Shown: in pieces, positions 16,742 through 48,930 of the stretch
How the letters are laid out: each line of letters opens with the position of its first letter
Numbering within the stretch: position 1 is the first letter of the stretch
Virus record (IMG/VR): IMGVR_UViG_3300029791_000002
Span: 1-64,000 of that record
DNA: 64,000 bases
Strand: one strand, 5' to 3'
Origin: a virus
Notes under the pieces: generated by a model
Databases searched by the model: none
Told to the model about the DNA's origin: nothing
The model's input: only the letters and a program-made list of their open reading frames with translations
Translations under genes and position numbers: made by a program

Positions 16742-17932
16742 TCACAAAATATTTATTCTAACCGGATTAAACACAAATCCACTATCGATTATCTTTCCAA
16801 TGAAAGAATCACCGACTACTTTTCTTGCTATTCCTATAGCTCCATTAATATCAGCATTAATTAGCTTTCCAACGGAACTTTGGAATAATCCACGTTTCTT
16901 TCTTTTCCCTAAATAGGATTCTTGTTTCTTTAGAGGTTCAAAAGCAAGATGGTCAATCTTTGATGTGTAAGATTCCTCATGAGTAATTACCTCTATCCCT
17001 AAAAGATTTGCTTTGTAAACAATCTTATCAATCAATTTAGAATGAGGAATAGAAACAAAATGTTGGTTATTCCTTTTACCGATATTTATCTCGTTTTTCC
17101 ATTCTTTGTTTAATCCAATGATGATTGTTCCTATATTGTTAGATTTACAAAAGTCTACAATGTATCTACTGATTTTATGCAATTTGTCTTCTATCCAACA
17201 ATTTCTAAACAAAGTAATTTTTCTTATTCTATTTGAAGTTCCCTTATTACCAACAAAAGACATCAACTTAGCTTTCTTCTTATTGTACCACTGATTTACT
17301 GATTTCATAACCCGTCCGTTTATAATGAAAGAATTAGTTTCTACATTACTAATACATGAACATAAATTATTCAATCCTAAATCAATCGAAAGAAAATTGT
17401 CTTTGTTTAAACCAAGATCAGTTTCCTTTCTTTCATAAACTACCTCTACTACATAACATGTAGCTTGAGGGATTATTCTAACTTGTTTTAGTTCGTCTTT
17501 CTTTACATTTGTTTTGATAGGTTTGATTATATCTTTAACAAAATAAATACAATTATCACCCTTTACCCTACAATTGCAGTTGGTGAAAACAACCATGTTT
17601 TGTTTCTTACCTTGTTTGTATGATGGAAGGTGAGGTCTATGATTTCCGTATTTAGAAGGATTCTTTTCAAAATCCTTCTTGAGTTTTATCCAGGATTTTA
17701 TGTTTTTAAATACCTGTTTAATCACCTGTTGGGATACATGATTAGGTAAATTCCTGAAATCGAATTGGTTTTCTTTGCAAAGTTTGTTTGATAAATCAAA
17801 TTCCTTTAAATAGTTACCTGAAAAGATTCCTTGACGAATGTTGTAAAGAACATAATTATATAACAAGCCGGATTTGAAGCAAATATCCTCAAACCGGTTG
17901 TCTTTAACTATATGCCTTTCAACTAATCTCAT
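16742..17932 (-). CDS. tnpB: TnpB-family RuvC-like nuclease (IS200/IS605 OrfB / OMEGA effector), zinc-finger-less
   Basis: Collinear with ISDra2 TnpB. RuvC-I SIDLGLNN and RuvC-II LLGIEVITHEE are present, then ESYTSK (YTSQ motif) and RuvC-III NADINGAIGIARK. The expected CxxC...CxxC zinc finger between RuvC-II and RuvC-III is replaced by a Lys-rich Cys-less segment. Confidence 0.85.
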   Translation of the reverse strand: MRLVERHIVKDNRFEDICFKSGLLYNYVLYNIRQGIFSGNYLKEFDLSNKLCKENQFDFRNLPNHVSQQVIKQVFKNIKSWIKLKKDFEKNPSKYGNHRPHLPSYKQGKKQNMVVFTNCNCRVKGDNCIYFVKDIIKPIKTNVKKDELKQVRIIPQATCYVVEVVYERKETDLGLNKDNFLSIDLGLNNLCSCISNVETNSFIINGRVMKSVNQWYNKKKAKLMSFVGNKGTSNRIRKITLFRNCWIEDKLHKISRYIVDFCKSNNIGTIIIGLNKEWKNEINIGKRNNQHFVSIPHSKLIDKIVYKANLLGIEVITHEESYTSKIDHLAFEPLKKQESYLGKRKKRGLFQSSVGKLINADINGAIGIARKVVGDSFIGKIIDSGFVFNPVRINIL

Positions 17933-43824: not shown

Positions 43825-43999
43825 AACTTTTTTGTTTTATTGTTTGTGAGATGCCCAGAATCGAACCAGGACCGGCACATACGCACCGGCACGCCGCGTC
43901 ATCCCCTCTATGATGCAGAAATAGGCATGCCTATCCTCACGAACCGACATGCCAAAACCCAAAACTTAATTTGATGAATAAAATAGATTAACAAAAATA

Positions 44000-44670: not shown

Positions 44671-45218
44671 TTTCTATCCTCCTTTATTAATTCTATTATA
44701 AACTTTTTATCTTGTTCCCACAATGGCAGCCCTTCTTTTACTGTGTATGCCACTGTTTCCCTCTCTCCTATTAATCGCACGGCAATCTCTCTTGCTTTCA
44801 AGTCATCCTCCTCATGCGATTTGTTTATTAAATCATAGGCACATGATTCCACCTTTTGCCTTTCGATTATTATCGAACCCATTAACTCGCTTATATGCGA
44901 TCCTAAAAACGATAAGACATTAATAGCTTTCCCAATATCATTTGAAATAGCACTTGCTAAATACATCTTATCCATATACTCCGGCAAAGCCTCGTATGCC
45001 GTTTCTATGTTTTTATACTGATTTTCGTTTACCTCCCTTTTAATCAGTTCTTCAAATTCTTCTTTTAACATGTTCTTCCCTATTTTAATGTTGTGTGAGA
45101 TCGCCGGAATCGAACCGACTTGCTGCACCATGAATCCCATAAAGCAAATGCTCCGATCTTCGCAGATGGGAGCATTCTGTCTAAAGCATAAGAAAATTAA
45201 TGAAGAAATTTTTCTCAC
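44667..45218 (-). CDS. hypothetical protein (183 aa)
   Basis: ORF. Confidence 0.5.
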   Translation of the reverse strand: MRKISSLIFLCFRQNAPICEDRSICFMGFMVQQVGSIPAISHNIKIGKNMLKEEFEELIKREVNENQYKNIETAYEALPEYMDKMYLASAISNDIGKAINVLSFLGSHISELMGSIIIERQKVESCAYDLINKSHEEDDLKAREIAVRLIGERETVAYTVKEGLPLWEQDKKFIIELIKEDRK

Positions 45219-45406: not shown

Positions 45407-45676
45407 CTACTCCCCCTCTATGGCAGCCTGTTCGTACCTACAAATCCAATCTCCATCTATACAACTATCACTACGCGATAATAAACATTTATCCTTATAA
45501 CAATCATAAAAAATACACCTATCACAACTGTAATCCTTAACGTCTACACAGCTAACTACCTTAGCATATACTATTCCATCACTGCCTTCTATTCCTTTTA
45601 CCCCGAAAATAGAACCTTCTACCTCCTTACTCAAATCTAAGTCAGGCGCAAAGTCATATACGTTCATACCATCCAT
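45407..45676 (-). CDS. Cys-rich hypothetical protein (89 aa)
   Basis: ORF with 7 Cys. Confidence 0.4.
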   Translation of the reverse strand: MDGMNVYDFAPDLDLSKEVEGSIFGVKGIEGSDGIVYAKVVSCVDVKDYSCDRCIFYDCYKDKCLLSRSDSCIDGDWICRYEQAAIEGE

Positions 45677-45786
45677 ATTTTAATTGTTAAACATCCCGCT
45701 TAAAAAAAAATACTCACATAATGCAGTCCTCAACCCTTAATCTGTTGGAAGGAACCTATATAATGCTGTTTTAAACCCTTATCATA

Positions 45787-45984
45787 TTGAATTTTGTGGA
45801 AATGATCTACAGAACACTGTTTTAAAACGCTTATCTATTGAATTTTGTTGGTAGGGAGTTGAATTTTGTTGGTAGGGAGTTGAATTTTGTTGGTAGGGAG
45901 TTGAATTTTGTTGGTAGGGAGTTGAATTTTGTTGGTAGGGAGTTGAATTTTGTTGGTAGGGAGTTGAATTTTGTTGGTAGGGAG
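45787..45984. repeat. tandem array of 7 perfect 21-bp direct repeats (TTGAATTTTGTTGGTAGGGAG) plus one degenerate upstream copy
   Basis: Copies at 45838-45984 are read directly and identical; a partial copy TTGAATTTTGTGG lies at 45787-45799. Confidence 0.9.
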
Positions 45985-46705
45985 TGCCCTCCCTCTCCCC
46001 CTCTCCAACCCCGGCTAATCCTCCGGCTTTCCGCATAGAACCTGCGCTCTCACACCTCGCTACAGGCATACGAAGAGCGCTACAAGCTTATACTCTGGCA
46101 TGGAGTATGGGGGATTTGGAGATAATATCATTCCATAGAGAGAATAGAGAGACTTCAGCCCACGCCCTACCGCCTGCTCCTCCTATCAAGATAGATATTC
46201 AGACCTATAATCAAAGCCAAAAACGAAAAGCAAAAAACCATCACAATATTATACTGATCTGGTCCGTACTCTAACATAGACCTTACTCCAACCGATAAAA
46301 AATACAGGTCAGCTACTAATAAAAACCACCACATAAAATAAAAAATTTACAATAAGTGTGTCCGAAAATACGGGTATCATAAAACCTAACTAATTGATAA
46401 TCAAGCATACCTTATTTTTAAGAAAAGTACAATAAGCCTAATTTTCAATCCATAGAGACGAAAAAGGCGGCATCCGACGCCCTATTTTGGGCCAGAAAAC
46501 CGCCTTAAGTTTCGTTTTAAACCAATTTTAACGACATGATATAGACAAAATACCGGCATTATATCCGAACTCTCATATTTTAGTTTCGTTTTAGACCAAT
46601 ATAGCACACATCCGCCGTTCACTCTCAGAATATCTTACCCTTAAATAGAAAGGGTAGGATACGAAAATAGGGCTGCTCCGATATTCGGAACAACCCTATC
46701 CCTAT

Positions 46706-47105: not shown

Positions 47106-47632
47106 GTTATTGTATTGTTTATAATTTAGAGGTTGCTCCGGAATCGAACCGGACGCGCATTCCTATCCTGTACGAATTTTATGCTACAACCAACAGCCCG
47201 TAATTAGTACGTAGTTCTTGTGTACAGGCCCGTACTATGTTGTTATTATATTTTCCGTCTGCTACACAACTTAGCCACAAATAAAGGCGATTGTGTCCTT
47301 GCGTTTTGATACGACACGTCCCTACATGGTAGGCTACATGCTTGTACCCTGTAATTTAATCTACAGCCTTGTTCTATTTTTTCGTGTAAGCAAGTAAGAC
47401 ACGTTTCGATCTGGAGACAAACCTCGTACAACGGCATGTTTTCCAAACTGTAATCACATACCTAACATAAACCGCGCTTATTCAACGTAGTTCATGCAGT
47501 AATACCAACCCTTTGATTGCCAACGGCAAGGGCAACGGTATATTTGCCTTCCAATATGTAAAATAACTCTCTGCTTGTCAGCTTCAGTCTAAAGCATACG
47601 CGGGACGTGCACCCACTGACAATGGCGTACAG

Positions 47633-47666
47633 GCGCGTTTAACGGTACGCGCCTAACCTTTTTTTA
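47633..47666 (+). terminator. +-strand intrinsic terminator-like hairpin at the end of an ORF-less region
   Basis: GGCGCGT-TTAACGGT-ACGCGCC, then TAACC and TTTTTTT. Confidence 0.4.
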
Positions 47667-48203
47667 CTGCTGGTTGCTTTCGTGCGCCAAATATTCACTC
47701 ACACACTTTGCAATGGTACGGATTGAATAAGATTTGATCTTAACAGCCACATAAGTAGCTTTATACTCGTCGTTTTCTTTTATCAACCATTTAGTGCTTT
47801 TTTTGGTCTCCAATGATTCGGCAGTAGTAAAACCAAATGATTTATATTCGCTACCGTAAACCACATTCTCAGCGCACCAATCAGCCGTTTTAGCCTCAAC
47901 GCCTTTCTCTTTGTCTGCATTGGTATCCTTATACACTTTAGAGTATAAAGCAAATTTAACAAATGTATCGTCAACTTTCGGTAACATTTGGCTACACACA
48001 GCTACCAGGCGTTTTTTATCCTTGGCGAGGGCTGCTACCTTTACAGCGTATTCTGCCGGTATTTCCAAAGCCTTGCAAATGGATTTCAAATCAGATCCAT
48101 TTGAAAATAGAGCGTTGTACAGTTTAACAGCACCTACCAAATTTGCGGCATTCTCTTTAATAACAGCGTTTTGCAGCTTGTTTACATTTTTTTTCGTAAT
48201 CAT
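47664..48203 (-). CDS. hypothetical protein (179 aa)
   Basis: ORF. Confidence 0.6.
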   Translation of the reverse strand: MITKKNVNKLQNAVIKENAANLVGAVKLYNALFSNGSDLKSICKALEIPAEYAVKVAALAKDKKRLVAVCSQMLPKVDDTFVKFALYSKVYKDTNADKEKGVEAKTADWCAENVVYGSEYKSFGFTTAESLETKKSTKWLIKENDEYKATYVAVKIKSYSIRTIAKCVSEYLAHESNQQ

Positions 48204-48531
48204 ATCCCAATATATTTTAATTGTTAAATCAAATTAATGACCCACAACGCGGGCAATTACAGATACATATATAGTTAGCCCAACGGGTACACTATATAGG
48301 TTCATCATGTTAACTTGCGATCTCTCTCGATCACGACGCAAATATACGAAATTTGTTGTTGCTACAAATATATATGCTATCTTTTTTTTGTTAACTTGTA
48401 TTAATTTCGATTCTATCGTCTGATTATCAGCAATTTATAAAACGAACGAGAGCGGTATTACACGCGTACATTAATATGTAGGATATATGCTTATTTAAGT
48501 GGCTTATAATCAATAATTTATAATAATACAT

Positions 48532-48568
48532 TGATTATCAATAATTTAAATAAGTTATTGATAATCAG
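48532..48568. promoter_or_regulatory. perfect 13-bp inverted repeat TGATTATCAATAA-11 nt-TTATTGATAATCA, with a nearby direct copy of ATCAATAATTTA
   Basis: Exact dyad read directly in an AT-rich intergenic region. Confidence 0.5.
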
Positions 48569-48670
48569 CGAGTTTGTAGGTTTGAGATAAAAACGCGTTT
48601 CCGATTTTCCAGCGAAGGGGGTGTGGGGGAGAAAACGCGTTTCGGGGGCGGGAGGTTCGTGATAGGTACC

Positions 48671-48857
48671 CCCTCTCTCCCATCACATAAACATCTTTCA
48701 TATCCCTCATTACATAAACATCTTTTACCCTCTCTCCCATCACATAAACATCTTTCATATCCCTCATTACATAAACATCTTTTACCCTCTCTCCCATCAC
48801 ATAAACATCTTTCATATCCCTCATTACATAAACATCTTTTACCCTCTCTCCCATCAC
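48671..48857. repeat. 3.3 tandem copies of a 57-bp unit (each containing two ACATAAACATCTTT cores), preceded by G-rich tracts (48611-48660)
   Basis: Copies at 48671-48727, 48728-48784 and 48785-48841 are identical, followed by 16 nt of a partial copy. Confidence 0.9.
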
Positions 48858-48930
48858 CCACCCACCTCACACACAACAAGAAAATAGGATTGATAGAAAC
48901 CAATCCTATTTAAAACACGACCTTATTAAT

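What the first reader, a model, noticed from the sequence alone, without database searches (positions are those of the whole stretch)
45787..45984. Seven perfect 21-bp iterons (about two helical turns each): candidate replication origin or protein-binding array
Seven copies of TTGAATTTTGTTGGTAGGGAG are identical to the base, with a degenerate eighth upstream. Perfect identity over seven copies means strong constraint or recent expansion. The array sits at the edge of a ~2-kb ORF-poor region and is followed immediately by an unusually GC/CT-rich tract (CCCTCCCTCTCCCCCTCTCC). The overlapping ORFs are repeat artefacts (STPYQQN heptads).
Basis: seen in the sequence. Interest (0 to 1): 0.65.

Follow-up and report, generated by a model that had tools for sequence, protein, structure and literature searches.

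The report
Unstable tandem repeat near phage genome end
The seven identical 21-base repeats are real, but they are one recently expanded version of a highly unstable non-coding repeat region in a common human-gut (epsilon crAss-like) phage. Most close relatives carry a single copy, so this is not a fixed set of replication-origin sites.

Summary
The array is real: 7 × TTGAATTTTGTTGGTAGGGAG at 45838-45984, found nowhere else in the window.

The window is an epsilon crAss-like phage, about 96% identical to crAssE-Sib (OR575929). crAssE-Sib and most of about 80 IMG/VR relatives have only one copy of this 21-mer.

What is conserved is an array of 1 to at least 9 bipartite units of about 51 bp: Box A TGTTTTAAA, a spacer, then Box B T(T/G)AATTTTGT(T/G)GG. 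The array lies between two minus-strand genes and ends at a quasi-palindrome and homopyrimidine C-run tract.

Relatives show many independent amplifications with different units (12, 15-17, 19, 21, 22 and 51 bp). About 30% of their contigs break inside the region. "Seven" (147 bp) also fits an assembler k-mer floor, so it may be a lower bound.

No ORF is conserved across the array. GC skew does not change there. No initiator, ParA/ParB or small-terminase (TerS) gene is adjacent.

The published PhageTerm genome start of crAssE-Sib maps 640 bp to the right. A second array with the same behaviour (48671-48857) lies in inverted polarity on the other side of that start.

Best reading: a slippage-prone variable-number tandem repeat (VNTR) inside a conserved, probably protein-binding, control region. 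An origin role is unsupported but not excluded.

The parts
45838..45984 (+). Seven perfect 21-bp copies of TTGAATTTTGTTGGTAGGGAG. Each copy is Box B plus the 7 bases that precede the C-tract. This is the expanded allele of the VNTR. The + strand contains no C; the 151-nt C-free run here is the longest in the window.
45755..45858 (+). Two ancestral bipartite units of about 51 bp: U1 at 45755-45805 and U2 at 45806-45858. Box A (TGTTTTAAA) lies at 45767-45775 and 45818-45826. Box B lies at 45787-45800 and 45838-45851. The last 21 bp of U2 are copy 1 of the array.
45713..45754 (+). Degenerate proximal unit (U0), beginning about 37 bp from the ATG of the downstream minus-strand gene.
   Evidence: (family D8)
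45979..45994 (.). Quasi-palindrome at the array/tract junction: AGGGAG-TGCC-CTCCCT. The C-tract further on (…CTCTCCAAC) is a degenerate inverted copy of GTTGG..GGGAG in the unit.
   Evidence: hairpin -10 to -11.5 kcal/mol, z about -2.3; the junction is present in relatives
45987..46012 (-). Homopyrimidine C-run tract on the + strand, which is a G-run (G4-type) motif on the minus strand. Its length varies between relatives. It is one of only four such motifs in 64 kb.
45985..46166 (-). Strongly conserved non-coding block (92-99% column identity). It folds better as minus-strand RNA, and its variation is mostly of the G-U-compatible type.
46167..46334 (-). Conserved 55-aa hydrophobic small ORF upstream of the array in the minus-strand sense.
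45407..45676 (-). 89-aa Cys-rich gene directly downstream of the unit array in the minus-strand sense. It is the first of a long row of small minus-strand genes of unknown function.
46623..46624 (.). Position homologous to the end and start of the crAssE-Sib record. The authors set that start with PhageTerm (p = 1.5e-22). Two 22-bp direct repeats (46505-46526 and 46579-46600) lie just to its left.
   Evidence: family D7; PMC11054128
48671..48857 (-). Second perfect array (57 bp × 3.3, built from sub-units of about 27 bp). It has no G on the + strand and opposite polarity to array 1. A G-run tract (48617-48652) abuts it. It is equally variable in relatives and is also a contig breakpoint.

Best explanation
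**What it is (shown).** The 7 × 21-bp array is one recently expanded allele of a hypervariable, non-coding tandem-repeat locus (a phage minisatellite or VNTR).

**The conserved element (shown).** It is an array of bipartite units of about 51 bp: Box A TGTTTTAAA, then 11-13 variable bases, then Box B T(T/G)AATTTTGT(T/G)GG. The array fills the intergenic space between a small membrane-protein gene and the first of a long row of small minus-strand genes. It lies 640 bp inside the mapped genome start of this phage genus. It always ends at a quasi-palindrome (AGGGAG-TGCC-CTCCCT) plus a homopyrimidine C-run tract.

**How the variation arises (inferred).** New copies come from slipped-strand or template-switch events at short microhomologies (TTTT, TTGR, GGGAG|T) next to this structure-prone tract. 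Unequal exchange between existing units adds or removes whole units. Copy number therefore drifts from 1 to at least 9 units and at least 7 sub-units.

**Function (inferred, low confidence).** The conserved Box A/Box B units are most likely binding sites for a sequence-specific DNA-binding protein. The sites sit close to one face of the helix (21 bp = 2.0 turns, 51 bp = about 4.9 turns) on DNA bent by phased T4 tracts. Together they would form a nucleoprotein or architectural control region at the head of the minus-strand small-gene cluster near the genome end. One to three sites would be enough, so extra copies would be tolerated or would only tune the strength. The perfect identity reflects recency, and partly assembly collapse, not constraint.
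For: **Real and unique.**

**Copy number is polymorphic.** crAssE-Sib has one copy. The 80 relatives have 0/1, 2, 3, 5 or 7 exact copies. Among 54 complete regions there are 36 distinct versions, 141-387 bp long.

**Independent amplifications with different registers and units.**
- 21 bp: the window, L006, L012, L040.
- 22 bp: TATCTATTGAATTTTGTTGGTA × 7 in L053; TGTGAATTTTGTTGGTAGGGAG × 5 in L038.
- 17 bp: L037.
- 19 bp: L031.
- 12 + 19 bp: L030.
- 15-16 bp: L058.
- 50-51-bp whole units: 6 perfect units in L262; 9 units as a 101-bp higher-order repeat in L288.

**Assembly behaviour.** About 23 of 78 relatives' contigs end inside the array. Several of these are whole-genome-length contigs with both ends in it.

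**Unit conservation.** The unit logo shows near-invariant Box A and Box B and variable spacers. Both boxes occur only at this locus in the 151-kb relative.

**Non-coding.**

**Structure-prone neighbourhood.** There is a junction hairpin, and the array itself is structure-free. Array 1 and array 2 are the longest C-free and G-free runs in the window. Three of the four G4-type motifs in 64 kb abut them.

**Parallel locus.** Array 2 shows the same behaviour.

**Genome start.** PMC11054128, mapped onto the window through.
Against: - No binding protein is identified. All neighbouring genes are of unknown function.
- Some amplified segments in relatives lack a complete Box B (L030, L036, L062). Amplification therefore need not be selected, and some odd junctions may be assembly chimeras.
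- Units of 17, 19 and 22 bp break strict helical phasing.
- The slippage and non-B-DNA mechanism rests on sequence features and general knowledge, not on a test.
- No reads were available, so true copy number, within-sample heterogeneity and physical ends could not be checked.
- Homogenisation among units could inflate the apparent conservation of the boxes.
Confidence: 0.45

Rival explanations
1. Iteron-type replication origin. The repeats (the 21-mers, or the Box A/B units) bind a phage initiator that melts nearby DNA and loads the phage DnaB-like helicase. The host polymerase would then replicate the genome, because this phage group encodes no DNA polymerase.
For: - Unit length and spacing (21 bp, two helical turns) and the direct orientation match classical iterons.
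- It is a single locus per genome, in a conserved non-coding region.
- Epsilon crAss-like phages lack a DNA polymerase and have a minimal replication set (PMC7886860; PMC11054128).
Against: - Copy number, unit size and register are not conserved among near-identical genomes, and most have a single 21-mer.
- No GC-skew change occurs at the array. The whole-genome extremes are 18 kb and 40 kb away, at the gene-block junctions.
- No Rep/O-like initiator was detected nearby or in the replication module.
- There is no DnaA-box cluster.
- The adjacent AT-rich stretch is the coding sequence of the 55-aa gene.
Confidence: 0.17
2. Tandem promoters on the + strand. Box B acts as the Bacteroides sigma-ABfr -7 element (TAnnTTTG), with transcription starting at GGGAG. 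The promoters would drive a non-coding RNA through the conserved C-rich block. This could be a long non-coding RNA like those of crAss-like phage phi14:2, or a primer/R-loop RNA.
For: - Box B is TAATTTTG, a perfect -7 consensus, in about half of the units of relatives, and GAATTTTG (7 of 8) in the window.
- The consensus is as cited in PMC7366714.
- The distance from Box B to GGGAG is fixed.
- In phi14:2, long intergenic regions near the genome end give abundant early non-coding RNAs.
Against: - There is no TTTG -33 element at the proper spacing.
- No gene lies downstream on the + strand.
- The conserved block folds better, and varies more compatibly, as minus-strand RNA.
- The motif is used nowhere else in the genome.
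- The sigma-70-type scan finds nothing in the array.
Confidence: 0.1
3. Packaging signal. The repeats are recognition sites for the small terminase (or an IHF-like protein), which assembles the packaging complex that cuts at the nearby genome start.
For: - The PhageTerm-defined start of crAssE-Sib maps to 46623|46624, 640 bp from the array.
- Two repeat arrays of opposite polarity flank it.
- crAss-like phages encode IHF-like proteins.
Against: - 640 bp and about 2 kb are far from the cut compared with known pac/cos sites.
- A closer pair of 22-bp direct repeats (46505-46526 and 46579-46600) is a better candidate.
- The terminase genes are about 20 kb away.
- The paper reports only a 'starting point', not the end type.
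Confidence: 0.1
4. A functionless mutational hot spot. The units have no role, the region is tolerated junk next to a structure-prone tract, and similarity among units is kept by repeated duplication and homogenisation.
For: - There is extreme length and register polymorphism.
- Some amplified segments lack a full box.
Against: - Box A and Box B are near-invariant, while the spacers vary, across divergent unit types and genomes.
- The region is retained in all relatives, including more divergent ones.
Confidence: 0.13
5. An assembly artefact or a coding repeat. Either the array does not exist in the real genome, or it encodes a heptad-repeat protein.
For: - The 148-bp perfect run sits at a typical k-mer floor.
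- ORFs of 57-95 aa overlap it.
Against: - The same 21-bp array appears in independent assemblies with different flanks (L006, L012, L040, L013, L015).
- A k-mer floor implies at least 7 copies, not zero.
- No ORF is conserved across relatives, and many length changes are not multiples of 3.
Confidence: 0.04

Closest known systems
Iterons of plasmid and phage origins (R6K gamma ori, seven 22-bp repeats; P1 oriR, five 19-bp repeats; lambda ori, four 18-bp repeats). Recalled from general knowledge.
   Same: Direct repeats of about 20 bp spaced two helical turns apart, in a non-coding, bent, single-copy locus.
   Different: Here the number, length and register of the repeats vary freely between near-identical genomes. 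No cognate initiator gene, DnaA-box cluster or skew signal accompanies them.
Hypervariable minisatellites/VNTRs whose instability is tied to G-quadruplex or quasi-palindromic sequence (for example human CEB1 studied in yeast; quasi-palindrome template-switch hot spots in E. coli). Recalled from general knowledge.
   Same: Head-to-tail units of 12-57 bp; extreme copy-number polymorphism among close relatives; strand-asymmetric G/C content; G-run and quasi-palindromic sequence directly adjacent.
   Different: This one sits in a lytic-type phage genome. Its units carry two conserved boxes that look functional. Structure formation and instability rates have not been measured.
F-plasmid sopC centromere (twelve 43-bp tandem repeats, of which one suffices). 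Recalled from general knowledge.
   Same: A tandem array of protein-binding units of about 40-50 bp whose copy number exceeds what function needs, so it can drift.
   Different: No ParA/ParB-type genes were found next to the array or in the annotated relative. An episomal lifestyle for this phage is unproven.
Long intergenic regions near the genome end of crAss-like phage phi14:2 that give abundant early non-coding RNAs (bioRxiv 10.1101/2020.03.07.982082).
   Same: Same phage order; ORF-poor, conserved region close to a genome end, next to small early-type genes.
   Different: No transcript data exist for epsilon phages. The accessible text of the phi14:2 paper describes no repeat arrays, and no sequence homology was tested.

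Membership tests
Iteron-type replication origin | Three or more direct repeats of about 17-22 bp at about two-turn spacing | tested here: met
   7 × 21 bp, perfect
Iteron-type replication origin | Repeat number and arrangement conserved among close relatives | tested here: not met
   There is one copy in crAssE-Sib and 0-7 in 80 relatives. The region has 36 distinct versions, with units of 12-51 bp.
Iteron-type replication origin | Cognate initiator (Rep/O-type) gene adjacent to, or containing, the repeats | tested here: inconclusive
   No Pfam or PHROG initiator match was found in 10 neighbours or in replication-module ORFs. Several neighbours are small proteins of unknown function.
Iteron-type replication origin | Adjacent AT-rich unwinding element and/or DnaA boxes | tested here: not met
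   There is no DnaA-box cluster. The AT-rich stretch to the right is the coding sequence of a conserved 55-aa gene.
Iteron-type replication origin | Compositional (GC-skew) switch at the site | tested here: not met
   Cumulative skew is monotonic through the array. The whole-genome extremes in crAssE-Sib are at 17,716 and 110,658. This is weak evidence, because skew follows gene orientation.
Iteron-type replication origin | Origin activity (replication initiates there) | not testable with these tools
   This needs read-depth profiles or replication assays.
Variable-number tandem repeat (minisatellite) | Head-to-tail units with copy-number polymorphism among closely related genomes, and non-coding | tested here: met
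Bacteroides sigma-ABfr promoter | -7 TAnnTTTG, plus -33 TTTG about 19-21 bp upstream, and a transcribed gene downstream on the same strand | tested here: not met
   The window units have GAATTTTG (7 of 8); relatives often have TAATTTTG. There is no -33 TTTG at the right spacing and no + strand gene downstream.
Partition centromere (sopC/parS type) | A tandem binding-site array with adjacent ParA/ParB-type genes | tested here: not met
   The array is present, but no ParA/ParB match was found among the neighbours. None is annotated in the 151-kb relative.
pac/cos terminase recognition site | Repeated terminase-binding boxes immediately flanking the mapped cleavage site | tested here: inconclusive
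   The published genome start maps 640 bp away. Nearer 22-bp repeats exist. No read data were available.

The most novel reading that the evidence does not exclude
The many independent amplifications, nearly all keeping Box B, may be selected rather than merely tolerated. Under this reading, epsilon crAss-like phages tune the dosage of a cis-acting site by rapid repeat expansion and contraction at two mirror-image arrays that flank the packaging start. The site could be a transcription- or R-loop-primed origin for a phage without its own DNA polymerase, a centromere-like element, or a decoy that titrates a host or rival DNA-binding protein. This would be a contingency-locus-like mechanism in a virus.
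Probability: 0.15. Interest if true: 0.7.

Novelty: new member of a known kind. Interest (0 to 1): 0.38.

Why it matters
**Practical value.**
- The two arrays explain why about a third of metagenomic assemblies of this abundant human-gut phage genus break at the same two places.
- They explain why thousands of public short-read assemblies yield a fragment of about 2.75 kb between them.
- They warn that repeat counts in such assemblies are lower bounds.
- They offer a ready strain-typing marker.

**Biological value.** They mark a conserved, so far undescribed control region next to the mapped genome start of a phage group that lacks its own DNA polymerase. This is the obvious place to look experimentally for the origin, the packaging signals and early regulation. 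The papers I could read on this group do not mention the arrays.

Tried and rejected
- **Known RNA families.** Rfam at gathering threshold over the window, and at E-value threshold over 43.5-49 kb, found only four tRNAs elsewhere and one chance hit.
- **Dispersed regulatory motif.** The 21-mer, Box A and Box B were searched through the window and the whole crAssE-Sib genome. They occur only at this locus, so this reading is rejected.
- **Neighbouring genes.** Pfam and PHROGs gave no function for the adjacent genes apart from a DHH phosphoesterase.
- **Replication-module ORFs.** PHROGs matched a DnaB-like helicase, an exonuclease and dUTPase, but no initiator.
- **Distant homologues of the 179-aa gene between the arrays.** The 120 hits listed, of 334, are all at least 86% identical. 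No deeper comparison was possible.
- **Bacterial genome scan for a host or prophage state.** It returned only two short, mis-binned contigs.
- **GenBank phages.** Only crAssE-Sib matches, even in distant mode.
- **CRISPR-repeat, DGR and IHF-site resemblances.** These were judged by eye and dropped, because the sequences do not fit the consensus features I recall.
- **Hairpin promoter of the N4 virion-RNA-polymerase type in the unit.** The ACAG/CTGT stem is not conserved across unit variants.
- **Rho-loading (rut) reading of the G-free minus-strand RNA.** Only the amplified 21-bp sub-unit is G-free, not the ancestral units.

Full report
**1. Observation**

The sequence at 45838-45984 is seven head-to-tail, base-identical copies of TTGAATTTTGTTGGTAGGGAG. 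With up to three mismatches the 21-mer occurs only at these seven places in the 64-kb window. The chance expectation is 0.01.

The 'degenerate eighth' copy at 45787-45807 matches 14 of 21 bases. It starts 51 bp upstream of copy 1, so it does not adjoin the array. The homopyrimidine tract CCCTCCCTCTCCCCCTCTCC follows directly at 45987-46006.

All credible genes for about 49 kb around the array are on the minus strand.

**2. Which genome this is**

The region is 95.7% identical to phage crAssE-Sib (GenBank 'csAssE-Sib', OR575929, 151,256 bp, human gut). That phage is an epsilon crAss-like phage (PMC11054128). The group has no DNA polymerase and a minimal replication gene set.

The crAssE-Sib record ends and restarts at window position 46623|46624. 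The authors chose that start with PhageTerm (p = 1.5e-22) on a pseudo-circular assembly. The array therefore lies 640 bp from a read-supported genome start. It sits inside a continuous block of about 58 kb of minus-strand genes.

**3. The array is one allele of a hypervariable locus**

crAssE-Sib has no 21-bp array. It has three degenerate units of about 51 bp and a single 21-mer equivalent before the same C-tract.

- *Copy number.* In 80 IMG/VR relatives the exact 21-mer occurs 0/1 (most), 2, 3, 5 or 7 times.
- *Length.* The stretch between the downstream gene and the C-tract has 36 different versions among 54 complete cases, 141-387 bp long.
- *Independent events.* The amplified units differ in length and register: 21, 22 (two registers), 19, 17, 15-16, 12 and 50-51 bp. 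One relative has six perfect 50-bp units. Another has nine units arranged as a 101-bp higher-order repeat. These cannot all descend from a single event.
- *Contig breaks.* About 23 of 78 relatives' contigs end inside the region. Some are genome-length contigs (142-155 kb) with both ends in it.

**4. The number seven**

Perfect periodic runs in the window and its relatives cluster at 148-154 bp and 106-118 bp. This gives 7.0 or 5.0 copies of 21/22-bp units, and never 4 or 6. That pattern is expected if de Bruijn assemblers with maximal k of about 141 or 99 traverse a repeat loop once.

I infer that 'seven' is probably a lower bound. The perfect identity may also be partly a product of assembly collapse. 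The second array in the window (187 bp, period 57) fits the same floor.

**5. What is conserved**

Aligning 44 distinct full units gives this consensus:

cCTAcAnaatgcTGTTTTAAAaCgCTgatctntTgAATTTTGTtGGaAgana

- Box A (TGTTTTAAA) and Box B (T(T/G)AATTTTGT(T/G)GG) are nearly invariant. The spacers vary.
- Both boxes occur only at this locus in the complete 151-kb relative.
- The units start about 37 bp from the ATG of the 89-aa gene (45407-45676, minus strand).
- The units always end at AGGGAG-TGCC-CTCCCT. This is a modest hairpin (-10 to -11.5 kcal/mol, z about -2.3), followed by the C-run tract.
- The tract is also a degenerate inverted copy of GTTGG..GGGAG in the unit, so the junction is a quasi-palindrome.
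- The array itself has no self-structure.

**6. Not coding**

Stop-free stretches over the region are only 36-56 codons in unexpanded relatives. They change frame and length with the repeat structure, and many length differences are not multiples of three.

The surrounding region is not empty, however.

- A 55-aa hydrophobic ORF (46167-46334, minus strand) is intact in 29 distinct relatives. Its substitutions are biased to codon position 3.
- The 180-bp block between that ORF and the array is 92-99% conserved. It folds better as minus-strand RNA (-41.9 versus -24.6 kcal/mol), with mostly G-U-compatible variation. I rate this as weak evidence that the region is transcribed in the gene sense.

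**7. Origin test**

- *Skew.* Cumulative GC skew is monotonic across the array. In the whole crAssE-Sib genome its minimum (17,716) and maximum (110,658) fall at the divergent and convergent gene-block junctions. The array lies mid-slope.
- *DnaA boxes.* There is no cluster near the array.
- *Initiator.* No Rep/O-type initiator, ParA/ParB or small terminase was recognised among the neighbours. None was recognised in the replication module either.

Together with the non-conserved repeat number, the classical iteron-origin reading lacks support. Skew in this phage tracks transcription, so I keep the origin at about 0.17 rather than zero.

**8. A mirror-image second array**

At 48671-48857 there is a perfect 57-bp × 3.3 array made of sub-units of about 27 bp.

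- It is equally variable in relatives, and 11 of 80 contigs break in it.
- Array 1 is the longest C-free run in the window (151 nt). Array 2 is the longest G-free run (213 nt).
- Three of the only four G4-type motifs in 64 kb abut the two arrays.
- The arrays have opposite polarity and flank the 2.7-kb segment that contains the mapped genome start.
- Many Logan contigs carrying the 179-aa gene between them are about 2.75 kb long, which is the inter-array distance. Clusters of up to 2,680 member sequences are represented by such contigs.

**9. Mechanism**

*Shown.* This is a non-coding, single-locus array of conserved bipartite units with rampant, recurrent copy-number change.

*Inferred from sequence and general knowledge.* The changes arise by slippage or template switching at short microhomologies next to a quasi-palindromic tract that can form G4 or H-DNA, and by unequal exchange between units.

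*Inferred with low confidence.* The boxes are protein-binding sites close to one helical face, on DNA bent by T4 tracts recurring every 21 bp. They would form a control or architectural complex at the head of the minus-strand small-gene cluster near the genome end. Extra copies would be tolerated or would tune its strength.

*Rivals kept open.* Origin (0.17), functionless hot spot (0.13), + strand promoter array (0.10), packaging signal (0.10), artefact or coding (0.04).

**10. Novelty and score**

Tandem, variable binding-site-like repeats in phage and plasmid control regions are a known kind of feature. This locus is a new, undescribed example in an abundant gut phage group. The epsilon crAss-like papers I read mention no such repeats.

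Its practical value lies in assembly breakpoints, strain typing and showing where to look for the origin, the packaging site and early control. As evidence for an origin it is weak. Interest: 0.38.

Noticed in passing
window 48671-48857 (flanks 48590-48670 and 48882-48911): A second perfect tandem array (57 bp × 3.3, sub-units of about 27 bp, core CATCACATAAAC) has no G on the + strand and opposite polarity to array 1. It is hypervariable in relatives and is a contig breakpoint. It is preceded by a very conserved G-run block that holds two AAACGCGTTT palindromes and a G4-type motif (48617-48652). On the right it is followed by a 13-bp-stem terminator-like hairpin.
   Followed up: partly
window 46623|46624; repeats at 46505-46526 and 46579-46600: This position is homologous to the PhageTerm-defined start of the crAssE-Sib genome. 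Two 22-bp direct repeats (AGTTTCGTTTTARACCAAT core, 91% alike, 74 bp apart) lie just to its left. A hairpin at about 46660-46700 lies just to its right. These repeats are better candidates for terminase recognition than the 21-bp array.
   Followed up: partly
window 46167-46334 (-): A conserved 55-aa hydrophobic ORF (MWWFLLVADLYFLSVG…DRRSRR) is intact in 29 distinct relatives. Its substitutions are third-position-biased. It is probably a real small membrane-protein gene inside the 'ORF-poor' region.
   Followed up: yes
window 45985-46166 (-): This 180-bp non-coding block is 92-99% conserved. Its predicted consensus fold is much better on the minus strand (-41.9 versus -24.6 kcal/mol). A G-rich arm pairs with CUCUCUAUUCUCUCUAU, and the variation is mostly G-U-compatible. 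It may be a structured RNA element, but the pairing is low-complexity, so the evidence is weak.
   Followed up: partly
window 48420-48575 and 46387-46404: There is an AT-rich cluster of a repeated motif, TGATTATCAAT(A/T)A, in both orientations. It includes 32-nt inverted arms, and one more copy lies at 46387-46404. It sits just upstream of a canonical TTTG…TAnnTTTG promoter-like site (about 48368, minus strand) for the 179-aa gene. It is conserved in relatives and could be an operator or an unwinding region.
   Followed up: no
window 43846-43954 (-), about 45095-45170 (-), about 47129-47272 (-): Three sequences look like tRNA fragments, with clear T-arm and acceptor 3' halves (…GGTTCGATTCCGG…). 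Default ARAGORN and Rfam both miss them. The other two appear only at relaxed thresholds. They may be intron-containing or decayed tRNA genes.
   Followed up: partly
Logan/ENA contigs carrying homologues of the 179-aa protein (47664-48203): Many of the listed protein clusters, some with 1,000-2,700 member sequences, sit on contigs of about 2,740-2,840 bp. That is the distance between the two arrays. Short-read assemblies of this phage worldwide seem to break at both arrays.
   Followed up: partly
window about 14,900; crAssE-Sib 17,716 and 110,658: The cumulative GC-skew maximum and minimum coincide with the convergent and divergent junctions of the two gene blocks. If skew reflects replication, the origin would be near crAssE-Sib 17.7 kb, just beyond the right end of this window.
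   Followed up: partly
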